Source of the DNA: Rhodospirillaceae bacterium
GTDB taxonomy: Bacteria; Pseudomonadota; Alphaproteobacteria; UBA6615
Direction of reading: 5' to 3'
DNA: 32,000 nucleotides
Assembly (NCBI GenBank): GCA_002724635.1
Contig: PBPM01000086.1
Coordinates: 13,772 to 45,771, forward strand
In this document: in pieces, positions 12,090-32,000 of the stretch
How the letters are laid out: each line of letters begins with the position of its first letter
Position numbering within the stretch: the stretch's first letter is position 1
The notes under the pieces: model-generated
Databases searched by the model: none
Told to the model about the DNA's origin: nothing
What the model saw: only the letters and a program-made list of their open reading frames with translations
Made by a program: the position numbers and the translations under genes

Positions 12090-12114
12090 TGTCTAACCCA
12101 TCAACGTTCGGCCG

Positions 12115-14075: not shown

Positions 14076-14723
14076 ATGACTGACAGTGAGCGCATACCGG
14101 TCGGCAAAGCCGATGATGCCGAGATCACACTAGGCATTCTGAACGCTATTCATGAGAATGAGCGGATAACCCAGCGAACAGTCGCTCAGGATTTGGGAAT
14201 CGCGCTCGGACTAGCGAATTCTTATCTGAAACGTTGCGTCAAAAAGGGCCTAGTTAAGGTCAGCCAAGCGCCGGCAAACCGATATGCCTACTACCTGACA
14301 CCACAAGGGTTTTCAGAAAAGAGCCGCCTGACCGCGGAGTATCTTTCTGATTCTTTCCGCTTCTTTCGTGATGCCCGCAGCCAATGCACCGAGGCTCTGC
14401 AAGAGGCCCAACGCCGCGGTTGGGGACGGATCGCCCTATTCGGTGCCAGCGAGCTCGCTGAGGTCGCCTCGCTTTGTGAAGCGCCGGATGTCGAAATCAT
14501 CGCTGTTGTCGACCCTGATAGCGCTCAGGCTTCGTTCGCGCATCTGCGCGTAGTGCGCAACCTCGCTGAGGCGGGAGACATCGATGCGCTTATCCTAACC
14601 GCGCTGGCAGGGCCTCAGGAAGCCTATGAAATGCTGGCTCGTGACCATCCGGACACGCATGTCATCGTGCCCAAACTCCTTCGCGTGAGCGAGATTCCAA
14701 CGCCGGAGAACGCACATGCATGA
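14076..14723 (+). CDS. winged-helix (EPS-associated MarR-like) transcriptional regulator with a C-terminal Rossmann-like extension
   Basis: ITQRTVAQDLGIALGLANSYLKRCVKKGLVKVSQAPANRYAYYLTPQGFSEKSRLTAEYL fits the EPS-locus MarR-like wHTH pattern. The C-terminal roughly 100 aa (RIALFGASELAEV...IIAVVDPD) looks like a nucleotide/CoA-binding fold. Confidence 0.72.
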   Translation: MTDSERIPVGKADDAEITLGILNAIHENERITQRTVAQDLGIALGLANSYLKRCVKKGLVKVSQAPANRYAYYLTPQGFSEKSRLTAEYLSDSFRFFRDARSQCTEALQEAQRRGWGRIALFGASELAEVASLCEAPDVEIIAVVDPDSAQASFAHLRVVRNLAEAGDIDALILTALAGPQEAYEMLARDHPDTHVIVPKLLRVSEIPTPENAHA

Positions 14724-15228
14724 CGCCAAGCGATGGTTCGTTGTCCGCACGCACCCTAACGGCGAGTTCAAGGCTCTTGCCCATATTCTTCGCCAGGGTT
14801 TCGATGGTTATCTGCCCCGTTACGTCAAGCGCCGTCGCCATGCACGTAAGACCGAGAATGTGCAGAAGCCGCTTTTCCCGGGATACCTGTTCGTCGGCAT
14901 GGATCCCGAGCGAGCAAGATGGCGTGCGCTCAACTCAACTGTCGGCGTCAGCGAGCTCATCTGCTACAGCGGGCAGCCAGCAGCTGTTCCCGACGAAGTG
15001 ATCGATGATATTCGTCGCCACGAAGACGAAAGCGGCTACGTGATTTTGGGCGAGCATGCCGGGCTCAAGAAGGGCGACCGGGTTCGGATCACCGAGGGCT
15101 CATTGTCCGATCAGATTGGGATCTTCGATGCACCCACGGACCAACAGCGCGTGTTCCTGCTGCTGGAACTTCTGGGTCGCCAAGTGCGCGTAAAAATGCC
15201 GATGACGGCGTTGGCGCCCGTCGGATAA
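14716..15228 (+). CDS. NusG-family specialised paralog (RfaH/UpxY-like antiterminator)
   Basis: The NGN domain reads RWFVVRTHPNGEFKALAHILRQGFDGYLP...PLFPGYLFV. The KOW-like segment reads KKGDRVRITEGSLSDQIGIF. It overlaps the regulator gene by 8 nt. Confidence 0.8.
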   Translation: MHDAKRWFVVRTHPNGEFKALAHILRQGFDGYLPRYVKRRRHARKTENVQKPLFPGYLFVGMDPERARWRALNSTVGVSELICYSGQPAAVPDEVIDDIRRHEDESGYVILGEHAGLKKGDRVRITEGSLSDQIGIFDAPTDQQRVFLLLELLGRQVRVKMPMTALAPVG

Positions 15229-17970: not shown

Positions 17971-19881
17971 CTAGAAGGCAACCCGCAGCGTCATCCGCGG
18001 CAGAATTCCCGGCGCCCGGAAGCCGACAGCCTCTTCGTATTTGTTATCAAAGATATTATCCACTGCGACCGCCGCGTCCCACCCCTCCGCAATGCGCCAG
18101 CTCGCGGCAACGTCGAAGCGCGTGTAGTCATTGAGCGACCTGTCTCCCGTCGGAATCGATGAATCGAGGACTCGCCCGACATAGAGTGTGCGACCACTTA
18201 ATTTAACATCCCGGAGCGCCTGCCAGCTGAAGTCGCCGCCCGCGCGCCACTTGGGACGGTTTCGCAACTCTTCATTATCGTCACGGATGTCGGTATCCAC
18301 GAATGTAATATGCGCGGCGATCGTGACCGAACTCCCTAATACCCAAGACGTCGTCACCTCGCTGCCCCACGTAACGACCTCGCCTCGGTTAACGAGACGA
18401 TTGAGCGTGTCGTCAAAATCGATACTGTCATAGAAATATGTCCGAAAAACGGAAGCCCCAACCTCGCCACGGCCATTCAGAAGAGGCAGGCGGACCGATG
18501 TCTCGACACTGGAGCTCGATTCCAGCCGGAGCGTCGGGTCGCCAACGATCGCGTTACCCAGCGCAAAGAAACTTGGGAGCTTAAAACCCTCACCCCAGCT
18601 CAACTTCCACTCCGTGCCCCGGGGGCTGAATGTATATACCGACCCGGCCGAAAGGCTCGCCTGAGAGGAGAAGCCGTCGGGGTTATCGATCCGTGCGCCT
18701 GCCTGAAGCGACCAGCCCGGCAGCACCCGCCAGCGTGCTTCGGTGAAGCCGCTCTGGGTGGTACGCCGCAGAGAGAAGCGCGAATCCGAAGGCGAACCGC
18801 CTGTGATTAGGCGGCTGTCGCTGATACCTGACTCCTCTAGGATTGCAGCCCCCGCGACAACCTCGAAATAGTCGTTCACGGACACATTCGCGCTGGCCTG
18901 CAGGTCAAAACGATCATAGACGCTCTCGCTACTGTTGACTGGCGTTCCGAAGGCGTTGCGCACACCACCCGCCACCCCCGGCGATACGAACAATTCGCGA
19001 TGCCGGTATGCACTCGCATCAACGTTGTAGCTCCACTGGGACGAAACTTCCTGCTCGAAGGCAAGCCCCGCCGAGATCTCGGTCGAATCACGCGTATCAC
19101 TGTCGCGCCGCACCGCGAAGGCAGGGCCGCCGCTGTCATCCGGGAAGTTCGAACTGTCGCTATCCGACATGCGGGCGACGAGCCGGAACGACATATCATC
19201 TGAGGGGTAAAGCTCAGACTTCGCGCTGACCAGGCGGTTGTGGAACCGGTTTCCCTCGGTCGCGTCACCATCATCGATATAGGCGGCACGCAGCGCCAGA
19301 TCCGCTCTCGGCGACAGCGATCCACGCTCCTCAACGCTGCCCCGCCGACCTCCGTGAGCGCCACCCGACACGAAAACGGAATACTGCTGTGCTCCGCCCG
19401 CGCCGCGCGTGATGAAGTTGATCGTACCTGAAATCGCGTCGGCGCCGCGAACTGCGGATTGGGATCCCCGGACGATCTCGACCCGCTCGATCGAACGAAT
19501 GTCGATCGACGAGATGTCGAAGGACCCGCCGCGGCTATTAGTCGGATCATTCACCTGGACTCCGTCGATCAGGATCTGAGTGTAGTTCGGATCCGCACCG
19601 CGTAAGTAGATGGAGCTCACGCCACCCAAGCCGCCCGGCAAGTCAATATGGATTCCAGGAACAAGCCGCATCAGGTGAACAGCGTTCGCCGGCTGCAATC
19701 TGTCGATTTCGTCCCTCGTTACAACGGTCACGCTAACCGGGGTGGTTGCGCTGGTGGAGGGCAGTCGTGACCCCGTCACAAGAACCGGATTGGAAAGGGG
19801 CACAGTTTCATCTTGGGCCAGCGCTGTACCTGTCGCTGCCAAGCCAAGCAATCCCATAGAAAACAGAAAACCTCGAAACAT
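17971..19881 (-). CDS. TonB-dependent outer-membrane receptor (small, BtuB-sized)
   Basis: It has a signal peptide (MFRGFLFSMGLLGLAATGTALA-QDE, ATG at 19881) and a TonB-box/plug region (PVLVTGSR...IYLRGADPNYTQILIDGVQVNDP...IERVEIVRGSQSAVRGADAISGTINFITR). The terminal residue is Phe (LRVAF). Confidence 0.92.
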   Translation of the reverse strand: MFRGFLFSMGLLGLAATGTALAQDETVPLSNPVLVTGSRLPSTSATTPVSVTVVTRDEIDRLQPANAVHLMRLVPGIHIDLPGGLGGVSSIYLRGADPNYTQILIDGVQVNDPTNSRGGSFDISSIDIRSIERVEIVRGSQSAVRGADAISGTINFITRGAGGAQQYSVFVSGGAHGGRRGSVEERGSLSPRADLALRAAYIDDGDATEGNRFHNRLVSAKSELYPSDDMSFRLVARMSDSDSSNFPDDSGGPAFAVRRDSDTRDSTEISAGLAFEQEVSSQWSYNVDASAYRHRELFVSPGVAGGVRNAFGTPVNSSESVYDRFDLQASANVSVNDYFEVVAGAAILEESGISDSRLITGGSPSDSRFSLRRTTQSGFTEARWRVLPGWSLQAGARIDNPDGFSSQASLSAGSVYTFSPRGTEWKLSWGEGFKLPSFFALGNAIVGDPTLRLESSSSVETSVRLPLLNGRGEVGASVFRTYFYDSIDFDDTLNRLVNRGEVVTWGSEVTTSWVLGSSVTIAAHITFVDTDIRDDNEELRNRPKWRAGGDFSWQALRDVKLSGRTLYVGRVLDSSIPTGDRSLNDYTRFDVAASWRIAEGWDAAVAVDNIFDNKYEEAVGFRAPGILPRMTLRVAF

Positions 19882-19995
19882 CCTAAGCTCACCACACGAC
19901 TTGAAAAGCAACCCATTTGTTAGCTGGGGTGGCACTGATATGATCATCCTCCACTCATATAGGCGCGTTAGGATGCAACGGACACCCCCACTTCA

Positions 19996-20829
19996 ATGAG
20001 CGTTGTCGCGACCCTCCGCCGCCTGCGTCACGGACCCTTGCGCTTTCTATCGCCGGTCTGGACACCGCTGGGAAATTTCTATCGCAGTTGCCTTTCCCGG
20101 GGCGGCTCGTCCTTCACGTCACTCCATCGCATCGGCCGATATGGACCGTTTCGGATGTCGGGAGAGTTCGCGTTCAGCAATTTCGAGAATTGGGGTAATG
20201 CGCATAATAGTGGCTTCGAATTCTGCATCGAAGCCAGCCGCGGCAAAACCTGCGTGCTCGATATCGGCGCCCATATTGGACTGGTCTCGTTGCCGTTGAG
20301 CCAGATGGTCGCGCCCGACGGCCGGGTGTTCGCTTTCGAACCTGCAACCGCGAACCGTGCCGCCCTGAAGCGGCACCTCGAACTCAACGCGATCACCAAT
20401 GTCGAGGTGGTCACGCAACTGGTCGGGGATACGGATAACGCAGACATCGTTCTGTTCGAGCATGCCAATGTCAGCGGCATGAACACCCGCGCTCCGTTGA
20501 AATCTGGCGCTGAGTATATTGAGACCCGCCATCGGCAGCTTACCATTGATAGCTTCTGCCGCGAACGAGGGCTTGAACCCGACGTCATCAAGATCGACGT
20601 CGAGGGTGCGGAGTTCGCGGTTCTCGAGGGCGCGCGCGAAATACTCGCTACGTCGCGACCAGTCCTCGTGGTCAGTATCCATCCTCAGCATCTAAAGGCA
20701 CTGGGGCGGAACGCGGACGAACTGCGCGCACTTGCGGCGGCTTCCGACTACGCGGTATCCGACACTGACGGAAACACCGTCAAAACCTTCCAACTGGACG
20801 AGTACGTTCTCCAACCGATTGGTAAGTGA
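19996..20829 (+). CDS. FkbM-family SAM-dependent methyltransferase (copy 1)
   Basis: VLDIGAHIGLVSL, VFAFEPATANRAALKRHLELN and DVIKIDVEGAEFAVLEGAREIL are present. Confidence 0.87.
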   Translation: MSVVATLRRLRHGPLRFLSPVWTPLGNFYRSCLSRGGSSFTSLHRIGRYGPFRMSGEFAFSNFENWGNAHNSGFEFCIEASRGKTCVLDIGAHIGLVSLPLSQMVAPDGRVFAFEPATANRAALKRHLELNAITNVEVVTQLVGDTDNADIVLFEHANVSGMNTRAPLKSGAEYIETRHRQLTIDSFCRERGLEPDVIKIDVEGAEFAVLEGAREILATSRPVLVVSIHPQHLKALGRNADELRALAAASDYAVSDTDGNTVKTFQLDEYVLQPIGK

Positions 20830-21785
20830 CCCGAATGTTGTCGAGCATATATACGACCTTGCGCGACCGCGGCGCGTCGACGCTGATCCGCGCCATCGGC
20901 AACCAGGCTGTGGCCATGGTGCATAGCAAACTTCTCGGGCGACGGTTTCTAGAGAAAAGCATTCACAACTACCGGATGCTGATTGACCTCGAGGACCCTG
21001 GTATCAGCCGCTCGCTTCTTCTGTTTGGCACCCGCGAGGTAGACCACAAGATTATGCTAGAGCAGGTTACGAAACCCGGTATGACCGTATTCGATATTGG
21101 CGCCAATATTGGATACTACGCTCTTATGGAACTGGGCCTGATCGGGCCCGAAGGCCGCATGCTGGCAATCGAGCCCTCACCGTCGAACATTGCGCTGTTA
21201 CAGCGCAATCTAAACCTAAATAACGAGGGGGACCGGGTCACAGTTCTCGGGGGTGCAGTCTCCGACAAGCCCGGTACCGCATCCTTCCACCTTTCGGCAC
21301 ACTCCAATCTAGGCACCTTTCATGCCGATGGCAGCGCGGCGCACATGCTGAGTGGTGAACAGATACCTGTCCGCACTTACACGGTTCCCGAACTGGCACA
21401 GGAACATGGCGCGCCGGATCTAATCCGGATGGACGTCGAGGGCCATGAGGTCGAGGTCATTCGCGGCATGCTCGATGCGATCCGGTCCGGCACGATGCGC
21501 CCGACGATCATTTTCGAGACCCACCTCTCGCGCTACTCCGCCGAACATGACATGACGGGGGTACTCGAGGACCTGTTCGCCTGCGGCTACGGCATACCGC
21601 GCGCAGCCTCGTCTTGGCAGGAGGGTACCGCGCGCGTTGCGGAACGCGGATATAAAGGTTCGGCGCCAATTCACACGGACGGCGTCAAACGCGTGATCTT
21701 TGAGAACATCGGGAACGAAGACGCGATCGACTTCATCTGCCGGACCGGCGGCCTGCGCACCGTGGTGCTGGCGCCTGTCAGCTGA
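20826..21785 (+). CDS. FkbM-family SAM-dependent methyltransferase (copy 2)
   Basis: VFDIGANIGYYAL, MLAIEPSPSNIALLQRNLNLN and DLIRMDVEGHEVEVIRGM are present. A GTG start overlaps the upstream TGA (GTGA); an ATG at 20835 is an alternative. Confidence 0.87.
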   Translation: MTRMLSSIYTTLRDRGASTLIRAIGNQAVAMVHSKLLGRRFLEKSIHNYRMLIDLEDPGISRSLLLFGTREVDHKIMLEQVTKPGMTVFDIGANIGYYALMELGLIGPEGRMLAIEPSPSNIALLQRNLNLNNEGDRVTVLGGAVSDKPGTASFHLSAHSNLGTFHADGSAAHMLSGEQIPVRTYTVPELAQEHGAPDLIRMDVEGHEVEVIRGMLDAIRSGTMRPTIIFETHLSRYSAEHDMTGVLEDLFACGYGIPRAASSWQEGTARVAERGYKGSAPIHTDGVKRVIFENIGNEDAIDFICRTGGLRTVVLAPVS

Positions 21786-21796
21786 ACTAGCAACCC

Positions 21797-23389
21797 ATGC
21801 CAGCAAAGATTATCGGCGCGGAACGGTTCAGCTGGCGGCGCACGGCTGACGCGGGCGTCGAAACGCTAGCGACCGGCGACCCTGGGGCCGAGGCTGCGGT
21901 GCGGCATACACTCGGGCAGGGCTGCGCGGCACCGGCGGATCTCAGCGAGTCGGTCCGCGACGTCGAGGGCCATTTCGCCGTAATTGCGAAAGGTGGCACA
22001 ACGAGCTGTGCCATCGTCGATCATTGTCGCTCGTCGCCGATTTTCTTCACTAACGACGCAATCTCGAACGATGCACATCTGCTTCGCGCGGCGCAAAACC
22101 TGAACACGCCGGATCCGCAAGCCATTATGGACGCAGCGATGGCCGGCTTCGTAACTGGCGACCGAACGCTGTTCGCAAACCTGCGCCAGCTAACGGCCGG
22201 AAGCTTGGTAGTATGGCAGGACAACGATCCGCCGGAGGTAGTGCGATACCGCGATTACATGCCGACCGCGGTGGATTCGCGCCCCGAGGACGACCTTGTG
22301 GACGCTTTTCTCGCCGTGCTCGACGCGGCGACGGCACGAACCATCAGGGCGGCGAATGGGCGGCCGATCTGGGTCCCGTTGAGCGGAGGGCGCGATTCGC
22401 GGGTCCTACTCGCCAAGTTTGTGGAACATGGGTACGACAATCTCCATGCCTTCACCTACGGACCAAGGGGCAATGATGAGAAACGCGCCGCAAGGATCAT
22501 CGCCGAGCGCCTAGACGTTCGCTGGTCGTTCATGGCCAGCCACCCGGCCAGATTACGGCGTTTCTTCGCAAGTCCCGCACGAAACGATTACTGGGAGTAC
22601 TGCGACGGCCTCTCCGCCGTGCCGAACTTTCAGGACCTTCTCACCCTCCGGGCCTATCGTGAGCGCGGTATGCTACCCGACGACGCGATCTTGGTGAACG
22701 GCCAAACCGGCGACTTCATTTCCGGCGGGCATATCCCGGCAACGCTCATAGATGGCGACCCGAGTCCCGATAGACTGTTCGCGGCGATCGTCGGTAAGCA
22801 TTTCTCTCTATGGAACTCACTCAAGACCCCGGTAAAGCTTGATGCCCTGCGTGTAAGGGTCTTCGCCCAGCTGGGACTGCACGCCGATACTGAGCTCGAG
22901 CGCGACCATGCCGTTGCGCTGTATGAACAGTTCGAATTCGACGAACGCCAAGCAAAGTATGTGATCAACGGTCAACGCAACTACGAATTCCTCGGCCTGA
23001 ACTGGTCGCTGCCGCTTTGGGACAGGGCACTAGTCGAATTCTGGCGAAACGTGCCGGTTGAACAAAAGTTCCGTCAGAAGCTGTTCGCCACCGCACTTTC
23101 GCGCTGGAACTATCGCGGATTGTTCCGCGACTTCGACCCTATGGTCGGTCAGTGGTCGGGCCCGGCAAAGGCCCTGCTCATTCCGTCGCGGCTAATTCGA
23201 CTGACCCTGGGTCCTGCACGGCGCGACGCGTTCCTTCGTCGTATGCTCTATTTCGGCATGTATCGCGACCAGTACGCACCCTTCGGATATCCCGAGTTCC
23301 TGCGCCACGCAGGCGACCTGCGTAACCCGGTATCATTCCTGTCGCGCGAATGGCTTCGTGAACGTGGCCTCGATCGGGCGGCCTCGTGA
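21797..23389 (+). CDS. asparagine-synthase-like PP-loop amidoligase/amidotransferase lacking the N-terminal nucleophile Cys
   Basis: The PP-loop PLSGGRDSRVLL lies at 22382-22399. There is an AsnB-like N-domain relic (GHFAVIAKGG...DHCRSSPIFF), but the protein starts MPAKII rather than MCG. Confidence 0.78.
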   Translation: MPAKIIGAERFSWRRTADAGVETLATGDPGAEAAVRHTLGQGCAAPADLSESVRDVEGHFAVIAKGGTTSCAIVDHCRSSPIFFTNDAISNDAHLLRAAQNLNTPDPQAIMDAAMAGFVTGDRTLFANLRQLTAGSLVVWQDNDPPEVVRYRDYMPTAVDSRPEDDLVDAFLAVLDAATARTIRAANGRPIWVPLSGGRDSRVLLAKFVEHGYDNLHAFTYGPRGNDEKRAARIIAERLDVRWSFMASHPARLRRFFASPARNDYWEYCDGLSAVPNFQDLLTLRAYRERGMLPDDAILVNGQTGDFISGGHIPATLIDGDPSPDRLFAAIVGKHFSLWNSLKTPVKLDALRVRVFAQLGLHADTELERDHAVALYEQFEFDERQAKYVINGQRNYEFLGLNWSLPLWDRALVEFWRNVPVEQKFRQKLFATALSRWNYRGLFRDFDPMVGQWSGPAKALLIPSRLIRLTLGPARRDAFLRRMLYFGMYRDQYAPFGYPEFLRHAGDLRNPVSFLSREWLRERGLDRAAS

Positions 23390-24630
23390 TGCGCATTCTT
23401 TATGTATCACGACTGTTCAGCGGCCTCGCGGAAGGACTCCGCGACCGGCGCTGGGATCCGCGCGGCGTGCCGACCGTTTACCGGCTCCTCGAGGCGCTCG
23501 ACAAAACCGAACACGACCTGCGGGTCGTCTTCACCGTCAAGGACGATGCCGTCGACTGGCCCAGCAGGAAGACCTGCACCTTCCCGATCGAGGGCTTTGG
23601 GCGTGAGATCACGGTGGTACCCATGCGCCCACCGCTTCCCACCGCGTTCGGACGCGCACGGGGCTATCTCCGCGAGATCGGCCAGTATCGAGAGATCAGA
23701 CGTTTGTGCGACGACATCATGCCGGACATCGCCTATTTCGACCGCGTGAACATATACGCGGCATCGCTTCCCGCCCGCCGTAAGGCGGTGCCCGTCGTAT
23801 GGCGCATCATGGGGGTGCCGCCAGCCATGCACGACATGCTCGATCTTGCAGGACCGGTCGCGCGTATCACCCGCTGGGCCTATCGTGCACCATTCTCGAT
23901 GGCCCTGTGTTCGCGCGATGGTAGCGGCGGCGAGCAGTGGATGGAACGTGCGCTTGCGCCCGATACCCCGCGGCGCATGATGCTAAACGGTGTCGATCCT
24001 ATCGAGAATCCCTCCCTCGATGACCATATCCGCGACGCGGTATCAGGCCCGGAAACCAAGATCCTGTTCGTCGCACGGCTTGTGGAGGACAAGGGATGCC
24101 TAGAGTTTGTTGAGGCCGTGTCCGGTGCGCTCGATCGTGCACCGGGCCGGTTCCGCGCGATCGTTGCAGGCGACGGCCCTTTCGCCACTCAGATGCGTGC
24201 GCGTGCAGATGACGCCGGGCACGGGAAGCAGTTCCATTTCCTCGGGCAGGTGGCACATAATCAAATGCTGGGCCTTCAGCAGGCTTGCGATGTCTATGTG
24301 TCCCTAAACCGGATGTGCAACTTGACAAACGCCAACTTGGAAGCGATGAGAGCCGGTGTGTGCATGATCATCCCCACATCGCCCGGCACGCGCGGGATCG
24401 ACGTAGATACCGACGAACTCATGCCGGAGGACACCATCTTTCGCATCGCAAGCCCAGACGATGTCGCGGGCCTGCGCGAAGCGCTGGTTCATCTGGAATC
24501 CAACGCACAGGATCGGACGCGGCGCGCCCGAGCAATTGCCCTGCGGGCCGAGCAACTCATTCCGACTTGGGACGCGCGGATCACCTCGGAAATAGAGTTG
24601 CTCGAGCAGCTGACCGAGGCAGGGAATTGA
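23386..24630 (+). CDS. GT-B fold glycosyltransferase (GT4-like)
   Basis: KILFVARLVEDKGCLEFVEAV...VAGDGPF...FHFLGQV...ACDVYVSL...NANLEAMRAGVCMI. The start overlaps the upstream stop (GTG 23386 or ATG 23389). Confidence 0.83.
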   Translation: MMRILYVSRLFSGLAEGLRDRRWDPRGVPTVYRLLEALDKTEHDLRVVFTVKDDAVDWPSRKTCTFPIEGFGREITVVPMRPPLPTAFGRARGYLREIGQYREIRRLCDDIMPDIAYFDRVNIYAASLPARRKAVPVVWRIMGVPPAMHDMLDLAGPVARITRWAYRAPFSMALCSRDGSGGEQWMERALAPDTPRRMMLNGVDPIENPSLDDHIRDAVSGPETKILFVARLVEDKGCLEFVEAVSGALDRAPGRFRAIVAGDGPFATQMRARADDAGHGKQFHFLGQVAHNQMLGLQQACDVYVSLNRMCNLTNANLEAMRAGVCMIIPTSPGTRGIDVDTDELMPEDTIFRIASPDDVAGLREALVHLESNAQDRTRRARAIALRAEQLIPTWDARITSEIELLEQLTEAGN

Positions 24631-25760
24631 TGGGTATTCTGACTGCTCTTCGACGACGCATGCTCGCGGATCTTGATTCACGCCTCGCGCCACGTTTCCA
24701 CGAAACCTTCAATGCCGACCCGGTAACGATCTATGACGTTGGCGCGGCCGGCGGTGCGATCACGCCTTACCCGGACGGGCCCGCCGCATGGGCGCCCGTG
24801 GAGGGCTTCGAGCCACACCCGGTGAGTTTCCAGAATCTCGTGGATGCTGGTACGCTGGAACACGTCACGTTACACAATCTCGCGCTTACCAATAAGGACG
24901 GGCCGATTACCTTTTACGCCGGCCGATCGAAGCAACGAACGAAATCCTCGCTACGGTCGATCGAATACTTAGGTAGCGAGAGCGATGAGATCACAATCAA
25001 TGCGCTCAAGCTAGATTCTGCACCCCGGCAACTCGGAATCCGTCCGGCTAACTTCATCAAACTGGACACCGAAGGAACAGAGGATCTAGTCATACAGGGC
25101 GGCGAACGGATGTTTGCCGATGACATCCTCGGTGTACATACGGAGGTCGGTTTTTGGACCGAACAGTCCCGAGGCGTCCCGTTCTCCCAGATCGACAGCC
25201 ACCTCACCTCTCGTGGTTTTGTTCTGTTCGACCTGCAAATTAACCGTTCCGACATCCGCGTCCTGGGCGGACGCAAGGACAAGGTACGAAGCGGAGACGC
25301 GCTCTACTTCCGGAGCTTTGATCATCTCTGGTCACCCAACGGGGACCAGGCCGCCTTGCGGTCCAAATTGCTTAAGCTGATGAGTTTACTGGTCGGCTGG
25401 CGCTATCTGAACTACGCCTTCGAGCTCGCCGACTTCGGACGAACACACGACCTGCTGCAGGCCGAGGAGTTCGACGATATTGTCACGCCTTGGATACAAA
25501 CCAGTGATCTGTCGGATTGCATTCCGAACTTTCCGGGTCGCACCAGGCTCGCGCTTCTGTTTGATTCGCTGTCCTATGCGTTCTACCCGAGCATTAAGAA
25601 GGGCGTGCCCTATTCTTTCAACAGCCTTGGCAACCACTGGGTCGTGCGCACGGCGAAGAACGACCCGACGAGCGTATTCTTGCATTGCCCGGTGCTGGAA
25701 GCCGGCACCGTCAACCAATCCAAGACCATCCGTCTGGCACATGGCCATGACAACACTTGA
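24630..25760 (+). CDS. FkbM-family methyltransferase (copy 3) with a roughly 130-aa C-terminal extension
   Basis: The start MGILTAL (ATG at 24630) shares its A with the upstream TGA. IYDVGAAGG, GFEPHPVSFQNL and NFIKLDTEGTEDLVIQGGERMF are present. The longer ORF in the track starting at 24285 is read-through of the GT4 3' end. Confidence 0.8.
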   Translation: MGILTALRRRMLADLDSRLAPRFHETFNADPVTIYDVGAAGGAITPYPDGPAAWAPVEGFEPHPVSFQNLVDAGTLEHVTLHNLALTNKDGPITFYAGRSKQRTKSSLRSIEYLGSESDEITINALKLDSAPRQLGIRPANFIKLDTEGTEDLVIQGGERMFADDILGVHTEVGFWTEQSRGVPFSQIDSHLTSRGFVLFDLQINRSDIRVLGGRKDKVRSGDALYFRSFDHLWSPNGDQAALRSKLLKLMSLLVGWRYLNYAFELADFGRTHDLLQAEEFDDIVTPWIQTSDLSDCIPNFPGRTRLALLFDSLSYAFYPSIKKGVPYSFNSLGNHWVVRTAKNDPTSVFLHCPVLEAGTVNQSKTIRLAHGHDNT

Positions 25761-25792
25761 GTCGATCCGTCATGGTTAGGCTTTATTGATCC

Positions 25793-26530
25793 ATGCGAGC
25801 TTCCGACACCGCGAAATCACAGAATGCCCGCAGGGCCTGGGAGCGAAAAGCGTCGCTACGCGCGGTCTACAAGGATGTTTACAGACGTCTCGCCGAAAAA
25901 CAGAGGCCCGGCCCAACGATCGAGATTGGCGGCGGGTCGGGAAACTTCAAGAACTTTGCACCGGAAACAATTTCTACAGACATCATCGTGGCGCCATGGC
26001 TGGACGCGGTTACGGACGCGGTACAGCTCCCCTTCGCAGATGCATCAGTCGCAAACATCGTCCTGTTCGATGTTTTACACCACATCGAGTTCCCGGTCCG
26101 CTTTCTCGACGAAGCGGCCCGGGTGCTCGCACCCGGAGGCCGGGTCCTGCTTTCCGAGCCGGCCATTACGCCACTCAGCAACCTGTTTTATACCCACCTG
26201 CATCCCGAGCCAGTTGACGCCGAGGCAGATGTATTCGTGGCCGGAACACCGAACCCAAACCGCGACCCGTTCGATGCGAATCAGGCGATTCCCACACTGA
26301 TGTTCTTAAAACAGCGCGAGCGGTTCCGGGATCGCTTCCCGATATTCGATATAGTCGATGTTCGCTACCATAGCCTGCTCGCATATCCACTTACCGGCGG
26401 CTTCAGGAAATGGACGGTAATCCCGGCCACCATCGTGCCTGCGATGTTGTCGCTCGAATCGGTATTTATGCCACTACTCGGAAGGCTCATGGCCTTTCGT
26501 CTGATCGTCACGATCGAGCGGCGAAACTGA
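25793..26530 (+). CDS. class I SAM-dependent methyltransferase (Methyltransf_11-like)
   Basis: IEIGGGSGNF, LPFADASVANIVLFDVLHHI and LAPGGRVLLSEP are present. Confidence 0.85.
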   Translation: MRASDTAKSQNARRAWERKASLRAVYKDVYRRLAEKQRPGPTIEIGGGSGNFKNFAPETISTDIIVAPWLDAVTDAVQLPFADASVANIVLFDVLHHIEFPVRFLDEAARVLAPGGRVLLSEPAITPLSNLFYTHLHPEPVDAEADVFVAGTPNPNRDPFDANQAIPTLMFLKQRERFRDRFPIFDIVDVRYHSLLAYPLTGGFRKWTVIPATIVPAMLSLESVFMPLLGRLMAFRLIVTIERRN

Positions 26531-26676
26531 GACGCAAAGCTGTTATCAGCTAATCCCGTCCCAGCGGAAAAAAACGATGACAGCCGTGATCGCTTTGCGT
26601 ATTCGGAACAGCATTGGGCGCAAAGGTGTTCCCACCGGCAACGACACGGCTCCAAAAGGATGCATTGAAGGAAAAC

Positions 26677-27693
26677 ATGCCAGACAAGACCAACGACTCG
26701 ATTGACTGGAGCGGAAAGACCGTTCTGGTTACCGGTGGCACAGGTTCCTTTGGGCGCCGGTTCGCCGAAAAGCTGCTGTGCCGTTACAAGCTTAGAAAGC
26801 TCATCATCCTATCACGCGATGAACACAAGCAATACGATATGCAACAGTCCGAAGTTTTCAAGAACCGCGACGAACTTCGTTACTTCATCGGTGATGTGCG
26901 CGATCAGAGCCGCTTGCGCATGGCAATGCGCGGAGTGGATTGCGTCGTACATGCCGCCGCGCTCAAGCATGTGCCAGCGGCCGAGTACAATCCGTTCGAA
27001 TGCATACGTACCAACGTCAATGGTGCGGAGAATATTGTCTCTGCGGCGATTGAAACCGGAGTACCCAAGGTGGTCGCTCTTTCGACCGATAAGGCAGTGA
27101 ATCCGATAAACATCTACGGCGCAAGTAAGCTTGCGTCGGACAAGATCTTTGTAGCCGGGAATATGCTGGCCGCTGATGCGCCAACCCGGTTTGCAGTGGT
27201 GCGATACGGCAACGTGCTCGGCTCACGTGGTAGCATCATCCCCCTTCTGCGCCAGTTCGTCGCCGAGGGTCGCAAGAGCCTGCCCCTGACCGACGAACGC
27301 ATGACGCGTTTCTGGATTACTCTCGACCAAGGCGTCGATTTTGTTCTGTCGAGCGCTGGGCTCATGCGCGGTGGTGAAATCTTCGTTCCAAAGGTCCCCA
27401 GTATGAAGATCGTCGACATGATGGAAGCGATCGCCCCCGGTATTCCGAACGAGGTGATAGGCATCCGGCCAGGAGAGAAACTGCACGAGGTCCTCATCAG
27501 CGAGGACGATACAGCGATCGTACTGGACCTCGGCGATCGTTATGTCATTTGCCCAAACCACGACACGCGCATTCAGGCCTTTCACGAAAAGAACGGTGCA
27601 ACAGCCGTGGGGCAGGGCTTCCGATACGCGAGTGATGCAAACGACGACTGGCTCAACGCAGACAGACTCAAGGCACTAATCGGCGAGGAATAG
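26677..27693 (+). CDS. pseB: UDP-N-acetylglucosamine 4,6-dehydratase, PseB/FlaA1 type
   Basis: VLVTGGTGSFG, RYFIGDVRD, VHAAALKHVPAAEYNPFECIRTNVNGAENI, ALSTDKAVNPINIYGASKLASDK, VRYGNVLGSRGSIIP, MTRFWITLDQGV, GGEIFVPKVPSMKIVD and IGIRPGEKLHEV are collinear with Helicobacter FlaA1 as I recall it. The SD gaagga precedes the ATG at 26677. Confidence 0.9.
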   Translation: MPDKTNDSIDWSGKTVLVTGGTGSFGRRFAEKLLCRYKLRKLIILSRDEHKQYDMQQSEVFKNRDELRYFIGDVRDQSRLRMAMRGVDCVVHAAALKHVPAAEYNPFECIRTNVNGAENIVSAAIETGVPKVVALSTDKAVNPINIYGASKLASDKIFVAGNMLAADAPTRFAVVRYGNVLGSRGSIIPLLRQFVAEGRKSLPLTDERMTRFWITLDQGVDFVLSSAGLMRGGEIFVPKVPSMKIVDMMEAIAPGIPNEVIGIRPGEKLHEVLISEDDTAIVLDLGDRYVICPNHDTRIQAFHEKNGATAVGQGFRYASDANDDWLNADRLKALIGEE

Positions 27694-27872
27694 GCACCGC
27701 GACCCTATTCCCTCGGCGGACAGCGGATCCACCAGCTCCGGATTGCCAATCCGGAATCCAATTGCGATAAAGGCGGGACTCCAGTCGGTATCCGGCCGCA
27801 GAACTCCGTCGCCGGCATCGATTCTTTCGGGTGGGCTCGAGTCGGCAACCGGTCTGAGATCAAGGGGGTTTC

Positions 27873-29192
27873 ATGGCAGACAAAAGCAAGGCCCCGACCG
27901 TTTACATCGGGATGACCGCTGACATCATGCATCACGGTCTGATCAATGTTATCGAGGTCGGCCGCCAGCACGGCAGGGTGGTGATCGGGCTTATGACCGA
28001 TGGGGCCGTGTCCCGCTACAAGCCTCTCCCGTATCTTGAGTACGAACATCGTCGGCGAATCTTGGAAAACATCGTCGGTGTCGATGAGGTTGTTCCGCAA
28101 GAGGAATGGGATTTCGTCCCCAACCTGCGAAAGTTCAAACCAGAGATTGTGATCCATGGCGATGACTGGTGCGAGGGCCACCAGAAGATCTACCGAGATC
28201 GCGTCGTAGACGCCTTACGCGAATGGGGTGGCAAGTTGATCGAAGTCCCCTATACGCAAGGAGTCTCGACGCCGCGCTTCAATACCCAGCTGAGAGGCCT
28301 CGGCACGACATCCGAAATTCGCCGACAAAGCCTGCGGCGACACCTTGACTCTGGTGAGCTGATCCGGGTCATCGAGGTTCACAGTCCCCTCTGCGGCTTG
28401 CTTGCAGAGAATCTCGCCGTCAATCGGGAAGACAGCGTCGCGCGCTTCGAAGCAATGTGGGTTTCGAGCCTGACAGACTCGACAGTGCGCGGGAAACCCG
28501 ACATCGAACTAGTCGATACCAGCAGCCGAATTGCCGCCATCGACGCACTCTTTGAAGTGACCACCAAGCCCCTTATCTTCGATGGCGACACCGGCGGCTT
28601 GCCCGAGCACTTCGCTTTCACGATACGTACTCTGGAACGCCTAGGGGCATCCGCAATCATCATCGAGGACAAGACCGGCCCGAAACGAAACTCGCTCTTG
28701 GACGGCGATGGACACCACGTTCAGGAAGACATCGATATGTTCGCAGAGAAGATCGCGGTGGGCCGGAAGGCTGCTCTCACAGACGAGTTCATGATCATCG
28801 GCCGAATCGAGAGCCTTATACTTGGTGTCGGCATGGAAGACGCGCTGGTGCGCGCGCGCGCCTATGTGGCTGCCGGCGCAAACGGAATCATGATTCACAG
28901 CCGCCGTAAAACACCTGACGAGATCTTCGAGTTCTGCGACAAGTTCCGCGAGGCCGATCCGGACACGACGATCGTCGTTGTGCCTACCCAGTACAGCGTC
29001 GTCCGAGAATCCGAGCTGATCGAGCACGGGGTGAACATCGTGATCTATGCCAACCACCTCCTCCGAGCTTCATTCCCGGCGATGCGTGCAGTGGGCGAGT
29101 CCATTTTGCGCAACGGCCGCGCCATGGAGGCCGATGACATATGCCTGCCCGTGGACGAACTGCTCGGCATGATCCCTAATACCGTCTCATGA
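27873..29192 (+). CDS. pepM: fusion of a TagD-like cytidylyltransferase-fold domain and phosphoenolpyruvate mutase
   Basis: The N-terminal roughly 130 aa align to glycerol-3-phosphate cytidylyltransferase (EYEHRRRILENIVGVDEVVPQEEW, IHGDDW). The C-terminal domain carries the PepM-specific EDKTGPKRNS (EDKxxxxxNS) motif at 28665-28694. A strong SD (aaggggg) is present. Confidence 0.92.
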   Translation: MADKSKAPTVYIGMTADIMHHGLINVIEVGRQHGRVVIGLMTDGAVSRYKPLPYLEYEHRRRILENIVGVDEVVPQEEWDFVPNLRKFKPEIVIHGDDWCEGHQKIYRDRVVDALREWGGKLIEVPYTQGVSTPRFNTQLRGLGTTSEIRRQSLRRHLDSGELIRVIEVHSPLCGLLAENLAVNREDSVARFEAMWVSSLTDSTVRGKPDIELVDTSSRIAAIDALFEVTTKPLIFDGDTGGLPEHFAFTIRTLERLGASAIIIEDKTGPKRNSLLDGDGHHVQEDIDMFAEKIAVGRKAALTDEFMIIGRIESLILGVGMEDALVRARAYVAAGANGIMIHSRRKTPDEIFEFCDKFREADPDTTIVVVPTQYSVVRESELIEHGVNIVIYANHLLRASFPAMRAVGESILRNGRAMEADDICLPVDELLGMIPNTVS

Positions 29193-30349
29193 TCGAGCCT
29201 AACGCACTTCTCGATCAACTTTGCGCGGGCGGCATCGGATTTTTCACCGGTGTCCCCGACTCACTTCTGTCACCGCTCACATCGGCAATAGTCGCGCGGT
29301 TCCAAGACGGCGAGCATGTGGTCGCCGCGAACGAGGGAAGCGCTATCGCACTGGCAGCTGGACACCACCTCGCGACCGGTCAGACCGCATGCGTCTACCT
29401 GCAGAACTCCGGTCTCGGGAACGCCATCAACCCCCTGACCTCCCTGATGGATGAGGAGGTTTACGGAATCCCTGTTCTTCTGGTTGTCGGCTGGCGTGCC
29501 GAACTGAACGGCAATGAACAGCTCGCGGATGAGCCGCAACACCGCAAGCAGGGCAAGATCACGACGGGACTGCTCGATGTTCTCGGGATTCCCTACCTGA
29601 TCCTCGGACCTGACGGAATCGAGAACGGGTTGTCGGACGGCGTCGCCACCCTCATTTCTTTGGCGCAATCGGAGAACCGACCTGTCGCGCTCGTCGTGCG
29701 AAAGGGTGCCCTTGCCACCCTCACGACACCGTCAGGCGACTCCGTCGGCGTCATGACGCGAGAGGACGCGATCCGCGTTATTACAGAGACCGTCGGGCCG
29801 GAGATACCAATCGTTTCGACGACCGGGAAGGCATCGCGGGAGTTGTGGGAAATTCGCCGGCAAACCGATTTAGGAGAAGGTCGCCACGATGGGCAGGATT
29901 TTCTGACAGTCGGCTCGATGGGGCACGCCTCACAGATCGCTGCGGGCGTCGCGCTTGCAGATCGCGCGCGCGCCGTCCTATGTCTCGATGGAGACGGGGC
30001 CATGCTCATGCATCTCGGGGGCTTAGTCACCTCGGCGGCAATCCCTAACTACCGACATGTAGTTCTCAACAATGAGGTCCATGATTCGGTGGGCGGCCAG
30101 CCGACCAGCGGGGTTGGTCTCTCTCTAGCGCCGATAGCCGAGACATGCGGCTATGACTGGGTTCGTAGCGTTACCAGCCCGCGTGACCTGCCGGCTGCAC
30201 TCAAAGACATGCTGGCAGCGAATGGATCGGCGTTTCTCGAGATCATGGTACTGCCCGGCGCGCGAGCCGATCTCGGTCGGCCAAAGACCGCGCCGAAGGA
30301 CAGCAAGGCGGCGTTCATGACTCGCCTGAAGGACGGCTCTTCCGCCTAG
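29189..30349 (+). CDS. ppd: phosphonopyruvate decarboxylase (ThDP-dependent)
   Basis: GFFTGVPDSLLSPL at the N-terminus and the ThDP motif LDGDGAMLMHLGG...VVLNNEVHDSVGGQPT. An ATGA overlap joins it to pepM. Confidence 0.9.
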   Translation: MIEPNALLDQLCAGGIGFFTGVPDSLLSPLTSAIVARFQDGEHVVAANEGSAIALAAGHHLATGQTACVYLQNSGLGNAINPLTSLMDEEVYGIPVLLVVGWRAELNGNEQLADEPQHRKQGKITTGLLDVLGIPYLILGPDGIENGLSDGVATLISLAQSENRPVALVVRKGALATLTTPSGDSVGVMTREDAIRVITETVGPEIPIVSTTGKASRELWEIRRQTDLGEGRHDGQDFLTVGSMGHASQIAAGVALADRARAVLCLDGDGAMLMHLGGLVTSAAIPNYRHVVLNNEVHDSVGGQPTSGVGLSLAPIAETCGYDWVRSVTSPRDLPAALKDMLAANGSAFLEIMVLPGARADLGRPKTAPKDSKAAFMTRLKDGSSA

Positions 30350-31479
30350 CCGGCAGTTAGTCGTTCGAAAGCGCGCCGCGCGATCTGCCGTGCGATAAGG
30401 CCATCCGCATGACGAAGATTGTTGGCCGCGCGTGCTGGCGTAATCAGCGAATCTCCAAATGTATCGATGTCGTCAGCGGAGAGATGTCGAGCCATGACGT
30501 CACCGACACCGAGCGCGACCAGCCACCGTTCGAGTGTGTCGGGAACTGCATCGACGGCACACTCCAGCGCTTCGGCAACCGGCGCCAATCGTGCGGCGTC
30601 CTCCTCCTGATTAAAACGTGCAATTTCTGCCAAGGTGAAGCTGCATGCAAAACCGTGCGCGACACCGAAACGCGCGGTAAACGGATAGCTGATGGAATGT
30701 GCCAGCGCCGTCTGTGTCGTTCCCATGGCGAGTCCCGCCAGCAAGGCGGCCGTCTGCAGTGCGCCGCGTGCCTCGATATCCTTGGGCCGCGCTTCCGCGA
30801 CCGGCAGATACTTGTGGACCTGCGCGATCGCCTGAGCGGCAAGATAGTCGGTGAATATCGTATGCCGCCGGTTCCAGACAGCCTCGAGCGCATGAGACAC
30901 CGCATCGAGTGCTGTCGATCGGGTCAACTCGCTTGGCATGGTTATCGTCAGCGTAGGGTCCAAGATGGCATGACTCGGATAGAGACGCGGATCATTGATC
31001 GAATACTTTGTTCCGTCGTCACCCCATAGCGTCCCCCAGGGAGTCACCTCGGACCCTGTGCCCGCCGTGGTCGGCACCGCGATGATCGGAATTGGGAGTA
31101 TTTTCGCCGGCAGTGCGGCACCTTCGGAAAGATGATCGAGCAGGGGCGACATGTCGCCCCTGAGCGCCTTGAGTGCCACCATGCCCTTCGTCGCATCCAG
31201 CACGCTGCCCCCGCCCAGAGCGACGACCACCGACACATCGGGTATCTCCTCACTGAGTAAGGGCATCCGCGAGATCAACGGGTTCGGGTCAATATTGGAG
31301 ATAACCGCTGCGGGCGAACCAGCAATTGCCGCAATGCGAGCGTCGAAGTTTCTGTCTGCCCAGGAGCGGCTTGTAACCAGCGCCCAGTCCCGCCCGGCGA
31401 TGGCCGGACCAATGACCTCATCAAGCGCAGCCCCGTCGTGAACAGCGACTGGGCACCGGAACGGTGGCCTCAGAACCAA
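30346..31479 (-). CDS. group III iron-containing alcohol dehydrogenase, phosphonoacetaldehyde reductase (PhpC/FomC/Pdh)-like
   Basis: VVALGGGSVLDATKG, VPTTAGTGSEVTPW and the His-rich metal site LAHSISYPFTARFGVAHG are present. The apparent TTG start at 31479 overlaps the upstream cupin gene's stop. The function is inferred from the family and the pepM/ppd neighbourhood. Confidence 0.72.
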   Translation of the reverse strand: MVLRPPFRCPVAVHDGAALDEVIGPAIAGRDWALVTSRSWADRNFDARIAAIAGSPAAVISNIDPNPLISRMPLLSEEIPDVSVVVALGGGSVLDATKGMVALKALRGDMSPLLDHLSEGAALPAKILPIPIIAVPTTAGTGSEVTPWGTLWGDDGTKYSINDPRLYPSHAILDPTLTITMPSELTRSTALDAVSHALEAVWNRRHTIFTDYLAAQAIAQVHKYLPVAEARPKDIEARGALQTAALLAGLAMGTTQTALAHSISYPFTARFGVAHGFACSFTLAEIARFNQEEDAARLAPVAEALECAVDAVPDTLERWLVALGVGDVMARHLSADDIDTFGDSLITPARAANNLRHADGLIARQIARRAFERLTAG

Positions 31480-32000
31480 CGCTTGGTTTCCGCCAGCGCG
31501 CGGCTCCGACCGTCCGTTGCGAAGGTCGCGAATTCATCGAAGACTTCATCGACCAACTCGCCAGCAATCCGCGACATAGCAAGGCAGGCGCCCGCGGGGC
31601 CCTGCAGCCAATGCTCAACCATCGGGCGGATATAGGCGGAATCGCCCGGACCTATCGACGCGCTTCGACCATCACCCCAGAACAACTCGATATCCTGATC
31701 GCCATAGTTATAGAGATACTCATGGAGCTGATGCTGAAATCCCGGCCCGTCCGTATTTGCAGCACCGCCGAGCATCACAACGTTGAAGCCTCGCTGGCCG
31801 GGCTGATGTGGGGTCCGTGCGAGCTCCGACAATTCGCAAAAGGGTGCATTCGTGTCCGGAAACGGTCGTCGCTCGCTGCCGGCGAGATGGGTGATCGCAA
31901 CCTCGTTATCCTCGGCCATCGGAACAAACCAGAGGTCGCCGGGCTTGACCGCCAACGCAGCGCCCAGCACCGACAGCTCCTCGGCATTCGGCAGCAGGCC
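31470..32000 (-). CDS. C-terminal part of a cupin-fold protein, candidate 2-hydroxyethylphosphonate-utilising oxygenase (HEPD/MPnS/HppE superfamily); 5' end outside the window
   Basis: The frame is open to position 32000 (GLLPNAEELSVLGAALAVKPGDLWFVPM...). It has the cupin-like blocks HQLHEYLYNYGDQDIELFW and GPGDSAYIRPMVEH. It is translationally coupled to the Fe-ADH. The family assignment rests mostly on gene context. Confidence 0.5.
   Translation of the reverse strand, partial: GLLPNAEELSVLGAALAVKPGDLWFVPMAEDNEVAITHLAGSERRPFPDTNAPFCELSELARTPHQPGQRGFNVVMLGGAANTDGPGFQHQLHEYLYNYGDQDIELFWGDGRSASIGPGDSAYIRPMVEHWLQGPAGACLAMSRIAGELVDEVFDEFATFATDGRSRALAETKRWF

What the first reader, a model, noticed from the sequence alone, without database searches (positions are those of the whole stretch)
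31470..32000. Does the truncated cupin gene encode methylphosphonate synthase, HEPD, or a new 2-HEP oxygenase?
Only the C-terminal 176 codons are visible. Published structural work distinguishes MPnS from HEPD by the iron-ligand set (a Gln instead of a Glu in the facial triad) and by neighbouring packing residues. These all lie in the N-terminal cupin, which is outside this window. If it is MPnS-type, this would be a methylphosphonate producer, which matters for aerobic methane production in phosphate-poor waters. If it is neither type, the product could be a new phosphonate head group.
Basis: inference. Interest (0 to 1): 0.7.

Follow-up and report, generated by a model that had tools for sequence, protein, structure and literature searches.

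The report
Methylphosphonate synthase gene, cut by window edge
The truncated gene is the tail of a methylphosphonate synthase from an uncultured marine alphaproteobacterium, a known kind of enzyme whose product is a precursor of methane in oxygenated seawater, so the finding is real but ordinary.

Summary
Window 31470..32000 (- strand) is an open frame of 176 codons plus a TGA stop that runs off the window edge. Its only solved-structure relatives are Nitrosopumilus MPnS (E 2e-17) and Streptomyces albus HEPD (E 2e-12).

I recovered the full 462-aa gene from a TARA Oceans scaffold that differs from the window at 7 of 12,812 bases. It aligns end to end with MPnS. It carries H154, Q158, F168, I189 and H195, which correspond to MPnS H148, Q152, F162, I184 and H190. 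It has neither the Tyr/Gly pair of S. albus-type HEPD nor the Glu ligand of PhpD-type HEPD.

The AlphaFold model (pLDDT 94.8) best matches MPnS (TM 0.88/0.92). In a 191-sequence tree the protein lies in a clade with no HEPD-type member.

The neighbouring genes supply the substrate: a cytidylyltransferase-PEP mutase fusion, phosphonopyruvate decarboxylase and an iron alcohol dehydrogenase. A LicC-like nucleotidyltransferase lies directly upstream. Its homologues occur in 53 of 67 MPnS-type loci and in 0 of 14 HEPD-type loci, and are sometimes fused to MPnS.

Verdict: a new member of a known kind. Activity has not been assayed, and the protein is only about 34% identical to the characterised enzyme.

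The parts
31470..32000 (-). C-terminal 176 codons plus TGA stop of the methylphosphonate synthase (MPnS-type) gene: residues 287-462 of 462, the second cupin domain. The catalytic N-terminal cupin lies beyond the window edge.
   Evidence: Translation. PDB phmmer hits only MPnS and SaHEPD. 175 of 176 residues are identical to the full-length gene on TARA scaffold_500, L001 12282..13670. That full-length protein carries H154/Q158/F168/I189/H195.
30346..31479 (-). Iron-containing alcohol dehydrogenase, the likely phosphonoacetaldehyde reductase (PhpC/Pdh-like) that makes 2-HEP. Its TTG start overlaps the MPnS stop by 10 nt.
   Evidence: Pfam Fe-ADH and ADH_Fe_C. Best NCBIfam hit is TIGR03405 Phn_Fe-ADH, E 1e-82, at 277 bits, below the 424-bit equivalog cutoff. 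Homologues sit next to the MPnS/HEPD gene in 70 of 81 loci.
29189..30349 (+). Phosphonopyruvate decarboxylase (Ppd).
   Evidence: TIGR03297 at 425.8 bits, above the 312.5 cutoff.
27873..29192 (+). Fusion of an N-terminal cytidylyltransferase-like domain (PF01467, Fom1 type) with PEP mutase (Ppm).
   Evidence: TIGR02320 at 372 bits, above the 319.6 cutoff; CTP_transf_like at residues 15-107. EDKTGPKRNS motif at residue 265. This fusion type makes up 23.6% of Ppm enzymes (Rice 2019, PMC6697681).
26614..27693 (+). PseB-type UDP-GlcNAc 4,6-dehydratase (inverting). Glycan context for the phosphonate.
   Evidence: TIGR03589 at 482 bits, above the 408 cutoff. The syntenic MAG locus L004 adds PseC-, PseH- and NeuB-like genes.
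19996..26530 (+). Glycan-tailoring block: three FkbM-family methyltransferases, an asparagine-synthase-like amidotransferase, a GT4 glycosyltransferase and a class I methyltransferase.
   Evidence: Pfam and NCBIfam hits. The same gene order occurs in L001 and in MAG SP218 locus L004.

Best explanation
The fragment is the C-terminal, non-catalytic cupin half of a methylphosphonate synthase. This is a non-haem Fe(II) oxygenase that converts 2-hydroxyethylphosphonate plus O2 into methylphosphonate plus CO2/bicarbonate. The neighbouring genes make the substrate: PEP is converted to phosphonopyruvate (Ppm domain), then to phosphonoacetaldehyde (Ppd), then to 2-HEP (Fe-ADH). In the full-length protein, iron is held by His154, Gln158 and His195. 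Phe168 and Ile189 occupy the two positions that, in the published structures, pin the Gln ligand and direct the reaction to methylphosphonate rather than hydroxymethylphosphonate plus formate. The remaining steps are inferred, not shown. A LicC/PntC-like nucleotidyltransferase encoded directly upstream, and possibly the cytidylyltransferase domain fused to Ppm, would activate the phosphonate as a CMP conjugate. The phosphonate would then be transferred onto a surface glycan of the pseudaminic-acid type. The host is an uncultured marine alphaproteobacterium with about 61% GC.
For: Recovery of the full gene: TARA scaffold_500 (L001) differs from window 19189..32000 at 7 of 12,812 nt, and at 1 of 176 residues in the shared part of the gene.
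Full-length homology: MPnS 6b9s scores 256 bits over residues 10-462; SaHEPD 6b9r scores 211 bits.
Markers: the signature is HQFIH, the same as NmMPnS H148/Q152/F162/I184/H190, whereas SaHEPD is HQYGH. The marker definition comes from Lockwood 2022 Suppl. Table S2.
Family-invariant residues K27, R103, Y116 and N151 are present; they align with NmMPnS K28, R102, Y110 and N145.
Structure: the AF2 model has pLDDT 94.8. Foldseek ranks MPnS first (TM 0.88/0.92), then SaHEPD (0.86/0.90), then PhpD-type HEPD (about 0.72).
Tree: with the marker columns removed, the query sits in a split of 74 tips that holds no HEPD-type sequence (bootstrap median 72). 29 of 32 HQYGH sequences form their own clade of 30 tips.
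Context: Ppm has the EDKxxxxxNS motif, Ppd scores above its equivalog cutoff, and the ADH is adjacent. Homologues of the upstream nucleotidyltransferase occur in 53 of 67 MPnS-type loci, including Nitrosopumilus, and in 0 of 14 HEPD-type loci. Natural NTase-MPnS fusion proteins exist.
Against: No enzyme of this clade has been assayed. The protein is about 34% identical to the characterised N. maritimus enzyme in the Foldseek alignment. By tree distance it is about as far from SaHEPD as from MPnS (1.32 against 1.29), so the assignment rests mainly on two packing residues.
The N-terminal half was read from a near-identical contig, not from the window's own DNA. An exact-match search for the window's allele in JGI metagenomes found nothing.
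The ADH scores below the TIGR03405 equivalog cutoff.
The roles I give to K27, R103, Y116 and N151, and the SaHEPD mutagenesis that validates the two markers, are recalled from Born et al. 2017, which could not be opened here.
Confidence: 0.88

Rival explanations
1. It is a class II (S. albus-type) HEPD. This enzyme uses the same 2-His-1-Gln iron site but converts 2-HEP to hydroxymethylphosphonate plus formate.
For: SaHEPD is nearly as similar overall: 211 against 256 bits, TM 0.86 against 0.88, and tree distance 1.32 against 1.29. It has the same H/Q/H triad.
Against: The defining Tyr163/Gly184 pair is absent; the query has Phe168/Ile189. The HQYGH sequences cluster apart, mostly in actinomycetes, and none lies in the query's clade. 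The LicC-like nucleotidyltransferase next to the gene is found in 0 of 14 HEPD-type loci, although one NTase fusion protein with the HQYGH signature exists (P0160).
Confidence: 0.05
2. It is a class I (PhpD-type) HEPD with a 2-His-1-Glu triad, as in phosphinothricin biosynthesis.
For: It has the same overall bi-cupin fold: Foldseek TM about 0.72 to 3g7d and 3gbf.
Against: Identity is only 19-20%, and there is no sequence-level hit at E<=1. The position that carries the Glu ligand (184 in Nm numbering, per Lockwood's Table S2) is Ile, and position 152 is Gln, not Ala.
Confidence: 0.01
3. It is a new 2-HEP (or CMP-2-HEP) oxygenase that gives a different phosphonate head group, despite carrying the MPnS-like markers.
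For: The clade is at most about 55% identical to its nearest other relatives and about 34% identical to any assayed enzyme. The Ppm carries a Fom1-type cytidylyltransferase domain, and Fom1's domain makes CMP-HEP in fosfomycin biosynthesis (Rice 2019). A nucleotide-bound substrate is therefore conceivable.
Against: Every marker and every family-invariant active-site residue matches the enzyme that uses free 2-HEP. No extra domain or insertion is present. The gene context matches that of Nitrosopumilus-type MPnS loci.
Confidence: 0.05

Closest known systems
Methylphosphonate synthase (MPnS) of Nitrosopumilus maritimus, PDB 6B9S/6B9T, EC 1.13.11.73
   Same: Alignment runs the full length of both proteins (256 bits). 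The bi-cupin fold matches (TM 0.88/0.92). The H/Q/H iron triad, the Phe/Ile packing pair and K28/R102/Y110/N145 all have equivalents. The locus also has Ppm, Ppd, Fe-ADH and a LicC-like nucleotidyltransferase.
   Different: Identity is only about 34%. The host is a high-GC alphaproteobacterium rather than a thaumarchaeon. Ppm is fused to a PF01467 cytidylyltransferase domain, which was not detected in the Nitrosopumilus loci scanned. The cluster sits among pseudaminic-acid-type glycan genes.
Putative MPnS of marine Rhodospirillales and other Alphaproteobacteria (Lockwood et al. 2022, PMC9381506; named 'methylphosphonate synthase' by JGI for several hits)
   Same: Same signature (HQFIH). These are the nearest relatives outside the query's own small clade, at about 50-55% identity.
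   Different: The query belongs to a tight sub-clade (80-97% identity: P0001-P0005 and MAG SP218). Its NCBI members are labelled 'hypothetical protein'. In this sub-clade ppm and ppd lie next to mpnS, whereas many Rhodospirillaceae loci have no ppm or ppd within 10 kb.
Streptomyces albus HEPD (class II HEPD), PDB 6B9R
   Same: Same fold, same 2-His-1-Gln triad, same substrate 2-HEP, and 211 bits of similarity.
   Different: It has Tyr163/Gly184 in place of Phe/Ile and yields hydroxymethylphosphonate plus formate. Its relatives form a mostly actinomycete clade, and no LicC-like nucleotidyltransferase was found in 14 such loci.
HppE (hydroxypropylphosphonate epoxidase), PDB 1ZZ6/5U55
   Same: It is a distant relative of the N-terminal HTH-plus-cupin half (E 1e-5 to 3e-3) and also acts on a phosphonate.
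   Different: It has a single cupin of about 190-200 aa, different chemistry, and covers only residues 80-216 of the query.

Membership tests
MPnS/HEPD bi-cupin family | Full-length homology and a two-cupin fold with helical N-terminal and linker domains | tested here: met
   phmmer covers residues 10-462 against 6b9s and 7-462 against 6b9r. AF2 pLDDT is 94.8, and Foldseek TM is 0.88/0.92 to MPnS. This was tested on the TARA copy and on its 97%-identical cluster representative P0001.
Methylphosphonate synthase (MPnS) | 2-His-1-Gln iron triad (H148, Q152, H190 in N. maritimus numbering) | tested here: met
   H154, Q158 and H195 in the full-length protein. These residues lie outside the window and were read from a contig that differs at 7 of 12,812 nt.
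Methylphosphonate synthase (MPnS) | Packing residues Phe162 and Ile/Val184 that distinguish MPnS from HEPD | tested here: met
   F168 and I189. The marker table is in Lockwood 2022 Suppl. Table S2. 110 of the 120 closest homologues share HQFIH, and 9 more have HQFVH.
Methylphosphonate synthase (MPnS) | Genomic supply of 2-HEP (Ppm, Ppd, phosphonoacetaldehyde reductase) | tested here: met
   Ppm TIGR02320 and Ppd TIGR03297 both score above their cutoffs. The EDKxxxxxNS motif is present. The Fe-ADH is adjacent, with TIGR03405 as its best hit, though below the cutoff.
Methylphosphonate synthase (MPnS) | Catalysis: 2-HEP + O2 gives methylphosphonate + CO2 | not testable with these tools
   This needs purified enzyme and 31P NMR or LC-MS.
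HEPD class II (S. albus type) | Tyr163 and Gly184 next to the Gln ligand | tested here: not met
   The query has Phe and Ile at these positions; SaHEPD and 35 other family members have Y/G.
HEPD class I (PhpD type) | 2-His-1-Glu triad (Glu at position 184 and Ala at 152 in Nm numbering) | tested here: not met
   Ile189 and Gln158. There is no sequence hit to 3g7d at E<=1, and structural identity is only 19-20%.

The most novel reading that the evidence does not exclude
The LicC/PntC-like nucleotidyltransferase lies directly upstream of this gene. It travels with MPnS-type genes (53 of 67 loci) but not with HEPD-type genes (0 of 14 loci), and in other organisms it is fused to MPnS. It could be a dedicated methylphosphonate cytidylyltransferase. 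With the adjacent pseudaminic-acid-type glycan genes, this locus would then encode the still-uncharacterised route from free methylphosphonate to the methylphosphonate esters of marine polysaccharides.
Probability: 0.35. Interest if true: 0.5.

Novelty: new member of a known kind. Interest (0 to 1): 0.3.

Why it matters
Methylphosphonate is the precursor of the methane released when phosphate-starved marine microbes cleave it with C-P lyase. Knowing which organisms make it therefore bears on the oceanic methane paradox. This locus adds a high-GC, uncultured alphaproteobacterial lineage, sampled repeatedly in TARA Oceans assemblies, to the predicted producers. NCBI labels its closest relatives 'hypothetical protein', and no NCBIfam model matches the protein. 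MPnS in marine Alphaproteobacteria, including Rhodospirillales, has already been reported from the same sequence markers, so nothing conceptually new follows. The result fills in the picture rather than changing it. The most useful by-product is the strong association, and occasional fusion, of a LicC-like nucleotidyltransferase with MPnS-type genes.

Tried and rejected
1. Reading Born et al. 2017, the structural paper behind the markers: not held by DOI or by PMC id. I used the marker table in Lockwood 2022 Suppl. Table S2 instead and checked the numbering against PDB sequences rebuilt from HMMER output.

2. Finding the window's own contig beyond position 32000:
- An exact 101-nt search for the window allele in JGI metagenomes gave 0 hits.
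- Look-ups with the Ppd and ADH proteins found five and two contigs. Only TARA scaffold_500 carries the full gene; the others stop in the ADH gene or in the tail of the cupin gene, about 190 codons from its stop.

3. Library annotation of the gene:
- Pfam gives only sub-threshold Cupin_2.
- NCBIfam gives nothing for the fragment or for the full protein.

4. Using overall similarity or fold to separate MPnS from class II HEPD: not decisive. Bits are 256 against 211, TM 0.88 against 0.86, and tree distances are nearly equal.

5. Alternatives rejected: sugar isomerase, transcription factor or other cupins. The next structural matches (quercetinase, oxalate decarboxylase) have TM of 0.4 or less.

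6. Pelagibacter MPnS was not among the loci retrieved, so it was not aligned directly.

Full report
**Observation.** On the - strand, window 31470..32000 reads as 176 sense codons followed by TGA (31472..31470), and the frame is still open at the window edge. The fragment is 61% GC, like the window as a whole. Pfam sees only a sub-threshold Cupin_2 match (17.8 bits against a cutoff of 27.2), and NCBIfam sees nothing. A phmmer search of all PDB chains returns exactly two proteins. They are N. maritimus methylphosphonate synthase (6b9s, E 2.4e-17, chain residues 281-450) and S. albus hydroxyethylphosphonate dioxygenase (6b9r, E 2.1e-12).

**Surroundings.** The stop codon overlaps, by 10 nt, the TTG start of an iron-containing alcohol dehydrogenase (30346..31479, - strand). 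That protein's best NCBIfam hit is the phosphonate Fe-ADH model TIGR03405, at 277 bits, below the 424-bit equivalog cutoff.

Converging on it from the + strand are two genes:
- A phosphonopyruvate decarboxylase (29189..30349), which scores 426 bits on TIGR03297, above the cutoff.
- A PEP mutase fused to an N-terminal PF01467 cytidylyltransferase-like domain (27873..29192), which scores 372 bits on TIGR02320, above the cutoff. It carries the diagnostic EDKxxxxxNS motif (EDKTGPKRNS at residue 265).

Together these are the three enzymes that turn PEP into 2-HEP. Upstream of them lie PseB, several FkbM and class I methyltransferases, a GT4 glycosyltransferase and an asparagine-synthase-like enzyme. 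The phosphonate genes thus sit inside a surface-glycan island.

**Recovering the missing half.** An exact-sequence look-up of the window's Ppd protein found the same locus on TARA_SAMEA2619840 scaffold_500 (L001). Over the 12,812 shared bases it differs from the window at 7 positions. Within the shared part of the cupin gene, 1 of 176 residues differs (E to D). On that scaffold the gene is 462 codons long (L001 12282..13670, -), so the window holds residues 287-462.

No other assembly extends further. Two contigs stop in the ADH gene, and one stops in the tail of the cupin gene, about 190 codons from its stop. An exact search for the window's allele in JGI metagenomes found nothing. The N-terminal residues discussed below are therefore read from a 99.95%-identical relative. 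At that divergence, the chance that one of the five marker codons differs is well under 1% (inference).

**MPnS, HEPD or something else?** The full protein aligns end to end with MPnS (256 bits, residues 10-462) and with SaHEPD (211 bits). PhpD-type HEPD is not detected by sequence at E<=1.

I rebuilt the two reference sequences from the HMMER output. Their numbering reproduces the published markers: NmMPnS has H148, Q152, F162, I184 and H190; SaHEPD has H149, Q153, Y163, G184 and H190. Lockwood et al. 2022 (Suppl. Table S2) give the marker sets used in the field:
- mpnS: H148, Q152, F162, I/V184, H190.
- hepD: H148, A/Q152, I/Y162, E/G184, H190.

In MAFFT alignments the query has H154, Q158, F168, I189 and H195, which is the MPnS set. 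K27, R103, Y116 and N151 are also present and are essentially invariant across the family. They align with NmMPnS K28, R102, Y110 and N145. Their role in binding the phosphonate is my recollection of the structural papers, not something tested here.

The Gln-for-Glu difference separates MPnS only from class I HEPD. Class II HEPD shares the Gln ligand, so the Phe/Ile pair is what decides.

**Independent support.**
- Structure: an AlphaFold2 model of the 97%-identical representative P0001, built on a 65-sequence alignment, has mean pLDDT 94.8. Foldseek ranks MPnS chains first (TM 0.88/0.92), SaHEPD next (0.86/0.90) and PhpD-type HEPD third (about 0.72). Unrelated bicupins score 0.4 or less. Fold confirms family membership but does not separate MPnS from class II HEPD.
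- Family size: the family is modest, with 414 clusters at 50% identity at E<=1e-3.
- Signatures: across 238 aligned family members, 179 carry HQFIH and 35 carry HQYGH.
- Tree: in a neighbour-joining tree of 191 near-full-length sequences, 29 of the 32 HQYGH sequences form a single clade of 30 tips, mostly actinomycetes. The query sits in a 49-tip clade that has Phe at position 162 in all but two members and Ile/Val/Leu/Met at position 184, with no HQYGH member. With the five marker columns removed, the query still lies in an HEPD-free split of 74 tips (bootstrap median 72, minimum 16, n=40).
- C-terminal part alone: using only the part visible in the window, the 40 nearest sequences include no HEPD-type (HQYGH) sequence: 37 are HQFIH, 2 HQVMH and 1 HQFLH.

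**Context as a discriminator.** On the TARA scaffold a 254-aa nucleotidyltransferase (NTP_transf_3) lies 5 nt upstream of the gene on the same strand. Its best solved relative is S. pneumoniae LicC, E 4e-11, and it also matches the T. denticola PntC fusion 6pd1.

I scanned the 80 genome loci retrieved with the family alignment, plus L001 (81 loci). Homologues of this nucleotidyltransferase occur in 53 of 67 MPnS-type loci, including those of Nitrosopumilus, and in 0 of 14 HEPD-type loci. In the 50%-identity representative set there are natural NTase-MPnS fusion proteins. Six carry HQFIH and one carries HQYGH. There is also one ADH-MPnS fusion. This ties the nucleotidyltransferase functionally to MPnS. 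It fits the long-standing idea that methylphosphonate is nucleotide-activated and esterified to a polymer.

The closest genome, MAG 'Alphaproteobacteria bacterium SP218', has 84% amino-acid identity in this protein and about 74% nucleotide identity across the locus. It keeps the same gene order. Further upstream it adds PseC-, PseH- and NeuB-like genes and a sulfatase-fold membrane protein. Ppm fusions to PF01467 domains are common, at 23.6% of Ppm enzymes (Rice et al. 2019), so the fusion itself is not unusual.

**Mechanism.**
- Shown by sequence: a complete PEP-to-2-HEP gene set next to an MPnS-type oxygenase with the full marker set.
- Established from the characterised homologue: 2-HEP + O2 gives methylphosphonate + CO2/HCO3- (reaction as given in PMC12619172).
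- Inferred: cytidylylation of the phosphonate by the LicC-like enzyme and/or the Ppm-fused domain, followed by transfer to a nonulosonic-acid-containing glycan.

**Novelty.** MPnS-type genes identified by these same markers have already been reported in marine Pelagibacterales, Rhodospirillales and other groups (Lockwood 2022). JGI names several of the 50%-identical relatives 'methylphosphonate synthase'. The query's own sub-clade (P0001-P0005 and MAG SP218) is unnamed, and NCBI labels P0002 a hypothetical protein. This is a new member of a known kind, and I score interest at about 0.3.

The remaining uncertainty is biochemical. No enzyme closer than about 34% identity has been assayed, and overall similarity to class II HEPD is nearly as high as to MPnS. 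The call therefore rests on two residues whose predictive value was established in other lineages.

Noticed in passing
L001 13676..14440 (-); representatives P0130, P0135, P0144, P0147, P0172, P0186, P0160: A LicC/PntC-like nucleotidyltransferase sits directly upstream of MPnS. Its homologues occur in 53 of 67 MPnS-type loci and in 0 of 14 HEPD-type loci. In other organisms it is fused N-terminally to MPnS (700-950 aa proteins). One fusion carries the HEPD-type HQYGH signature.
   Followed up: partly
L005, L006, L008-L012, L014, L015, L017, L020-L024 (genome loci): Many Rhodospirillaceae and related MPnS loci keep the ADH and the nucleotidyltransferase next to mpnS but have no detectable ppm or ppd within 10 kb on either side. 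This differs from the window's locus.
   Followed up: no
window 32000 edge; L085 2..574; L002 and L003 ends; L084 start: Independent assemblies break in or just beyond this gene: within the tail of the cupin gene, within the ADH gene, or 1.5 kb past the gene. This suggests a strain-variable region that assemblers cannot bridge.
   Followed up: partly
P0121 (813 aa): A natural Fe-ADH-MPnS-like fusion protein with an unusual marker set, HQVMH (Val and Met instead of Phe and Ile). Its product cannot be predicted from the published markers.
   Followed up: no
window 11295..14013 and 14716..15228: A CysD-like PAPS-reductase-fold protein and a CysN/APS-kinase fusion lie next to a NusG/RfaH-like gene, upstream of the glycan cluster. 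They may supply PAPS for a sulfated surface polysaccharide.
   Followed up: no
window 7769..9427 and 9737..11014: A heparinase II/III-like protein (552 aa) and a UDP-sugar dehydrogenase lie between housekeeping genes (rpe, rsmB) and the glycan island.
   Followed up: no
L004 8009..9193 and L001 14476..15183: A 394-aa protein with no Pfam or NCBIfam match lies upstream of the nucleotidyltransferase. Homologues occur in 20 of 67 MPnS-type loci and in 0 of 14 HEPD-type loci. It is a candidate phosphonate transferase.
   Followed up: partly
window 31470..31479: The TTG start of the ADH gene overlaps the last codons and the stop of the MPnS gene by 10 nt, which suggests translational coupling.
   Followed up: no
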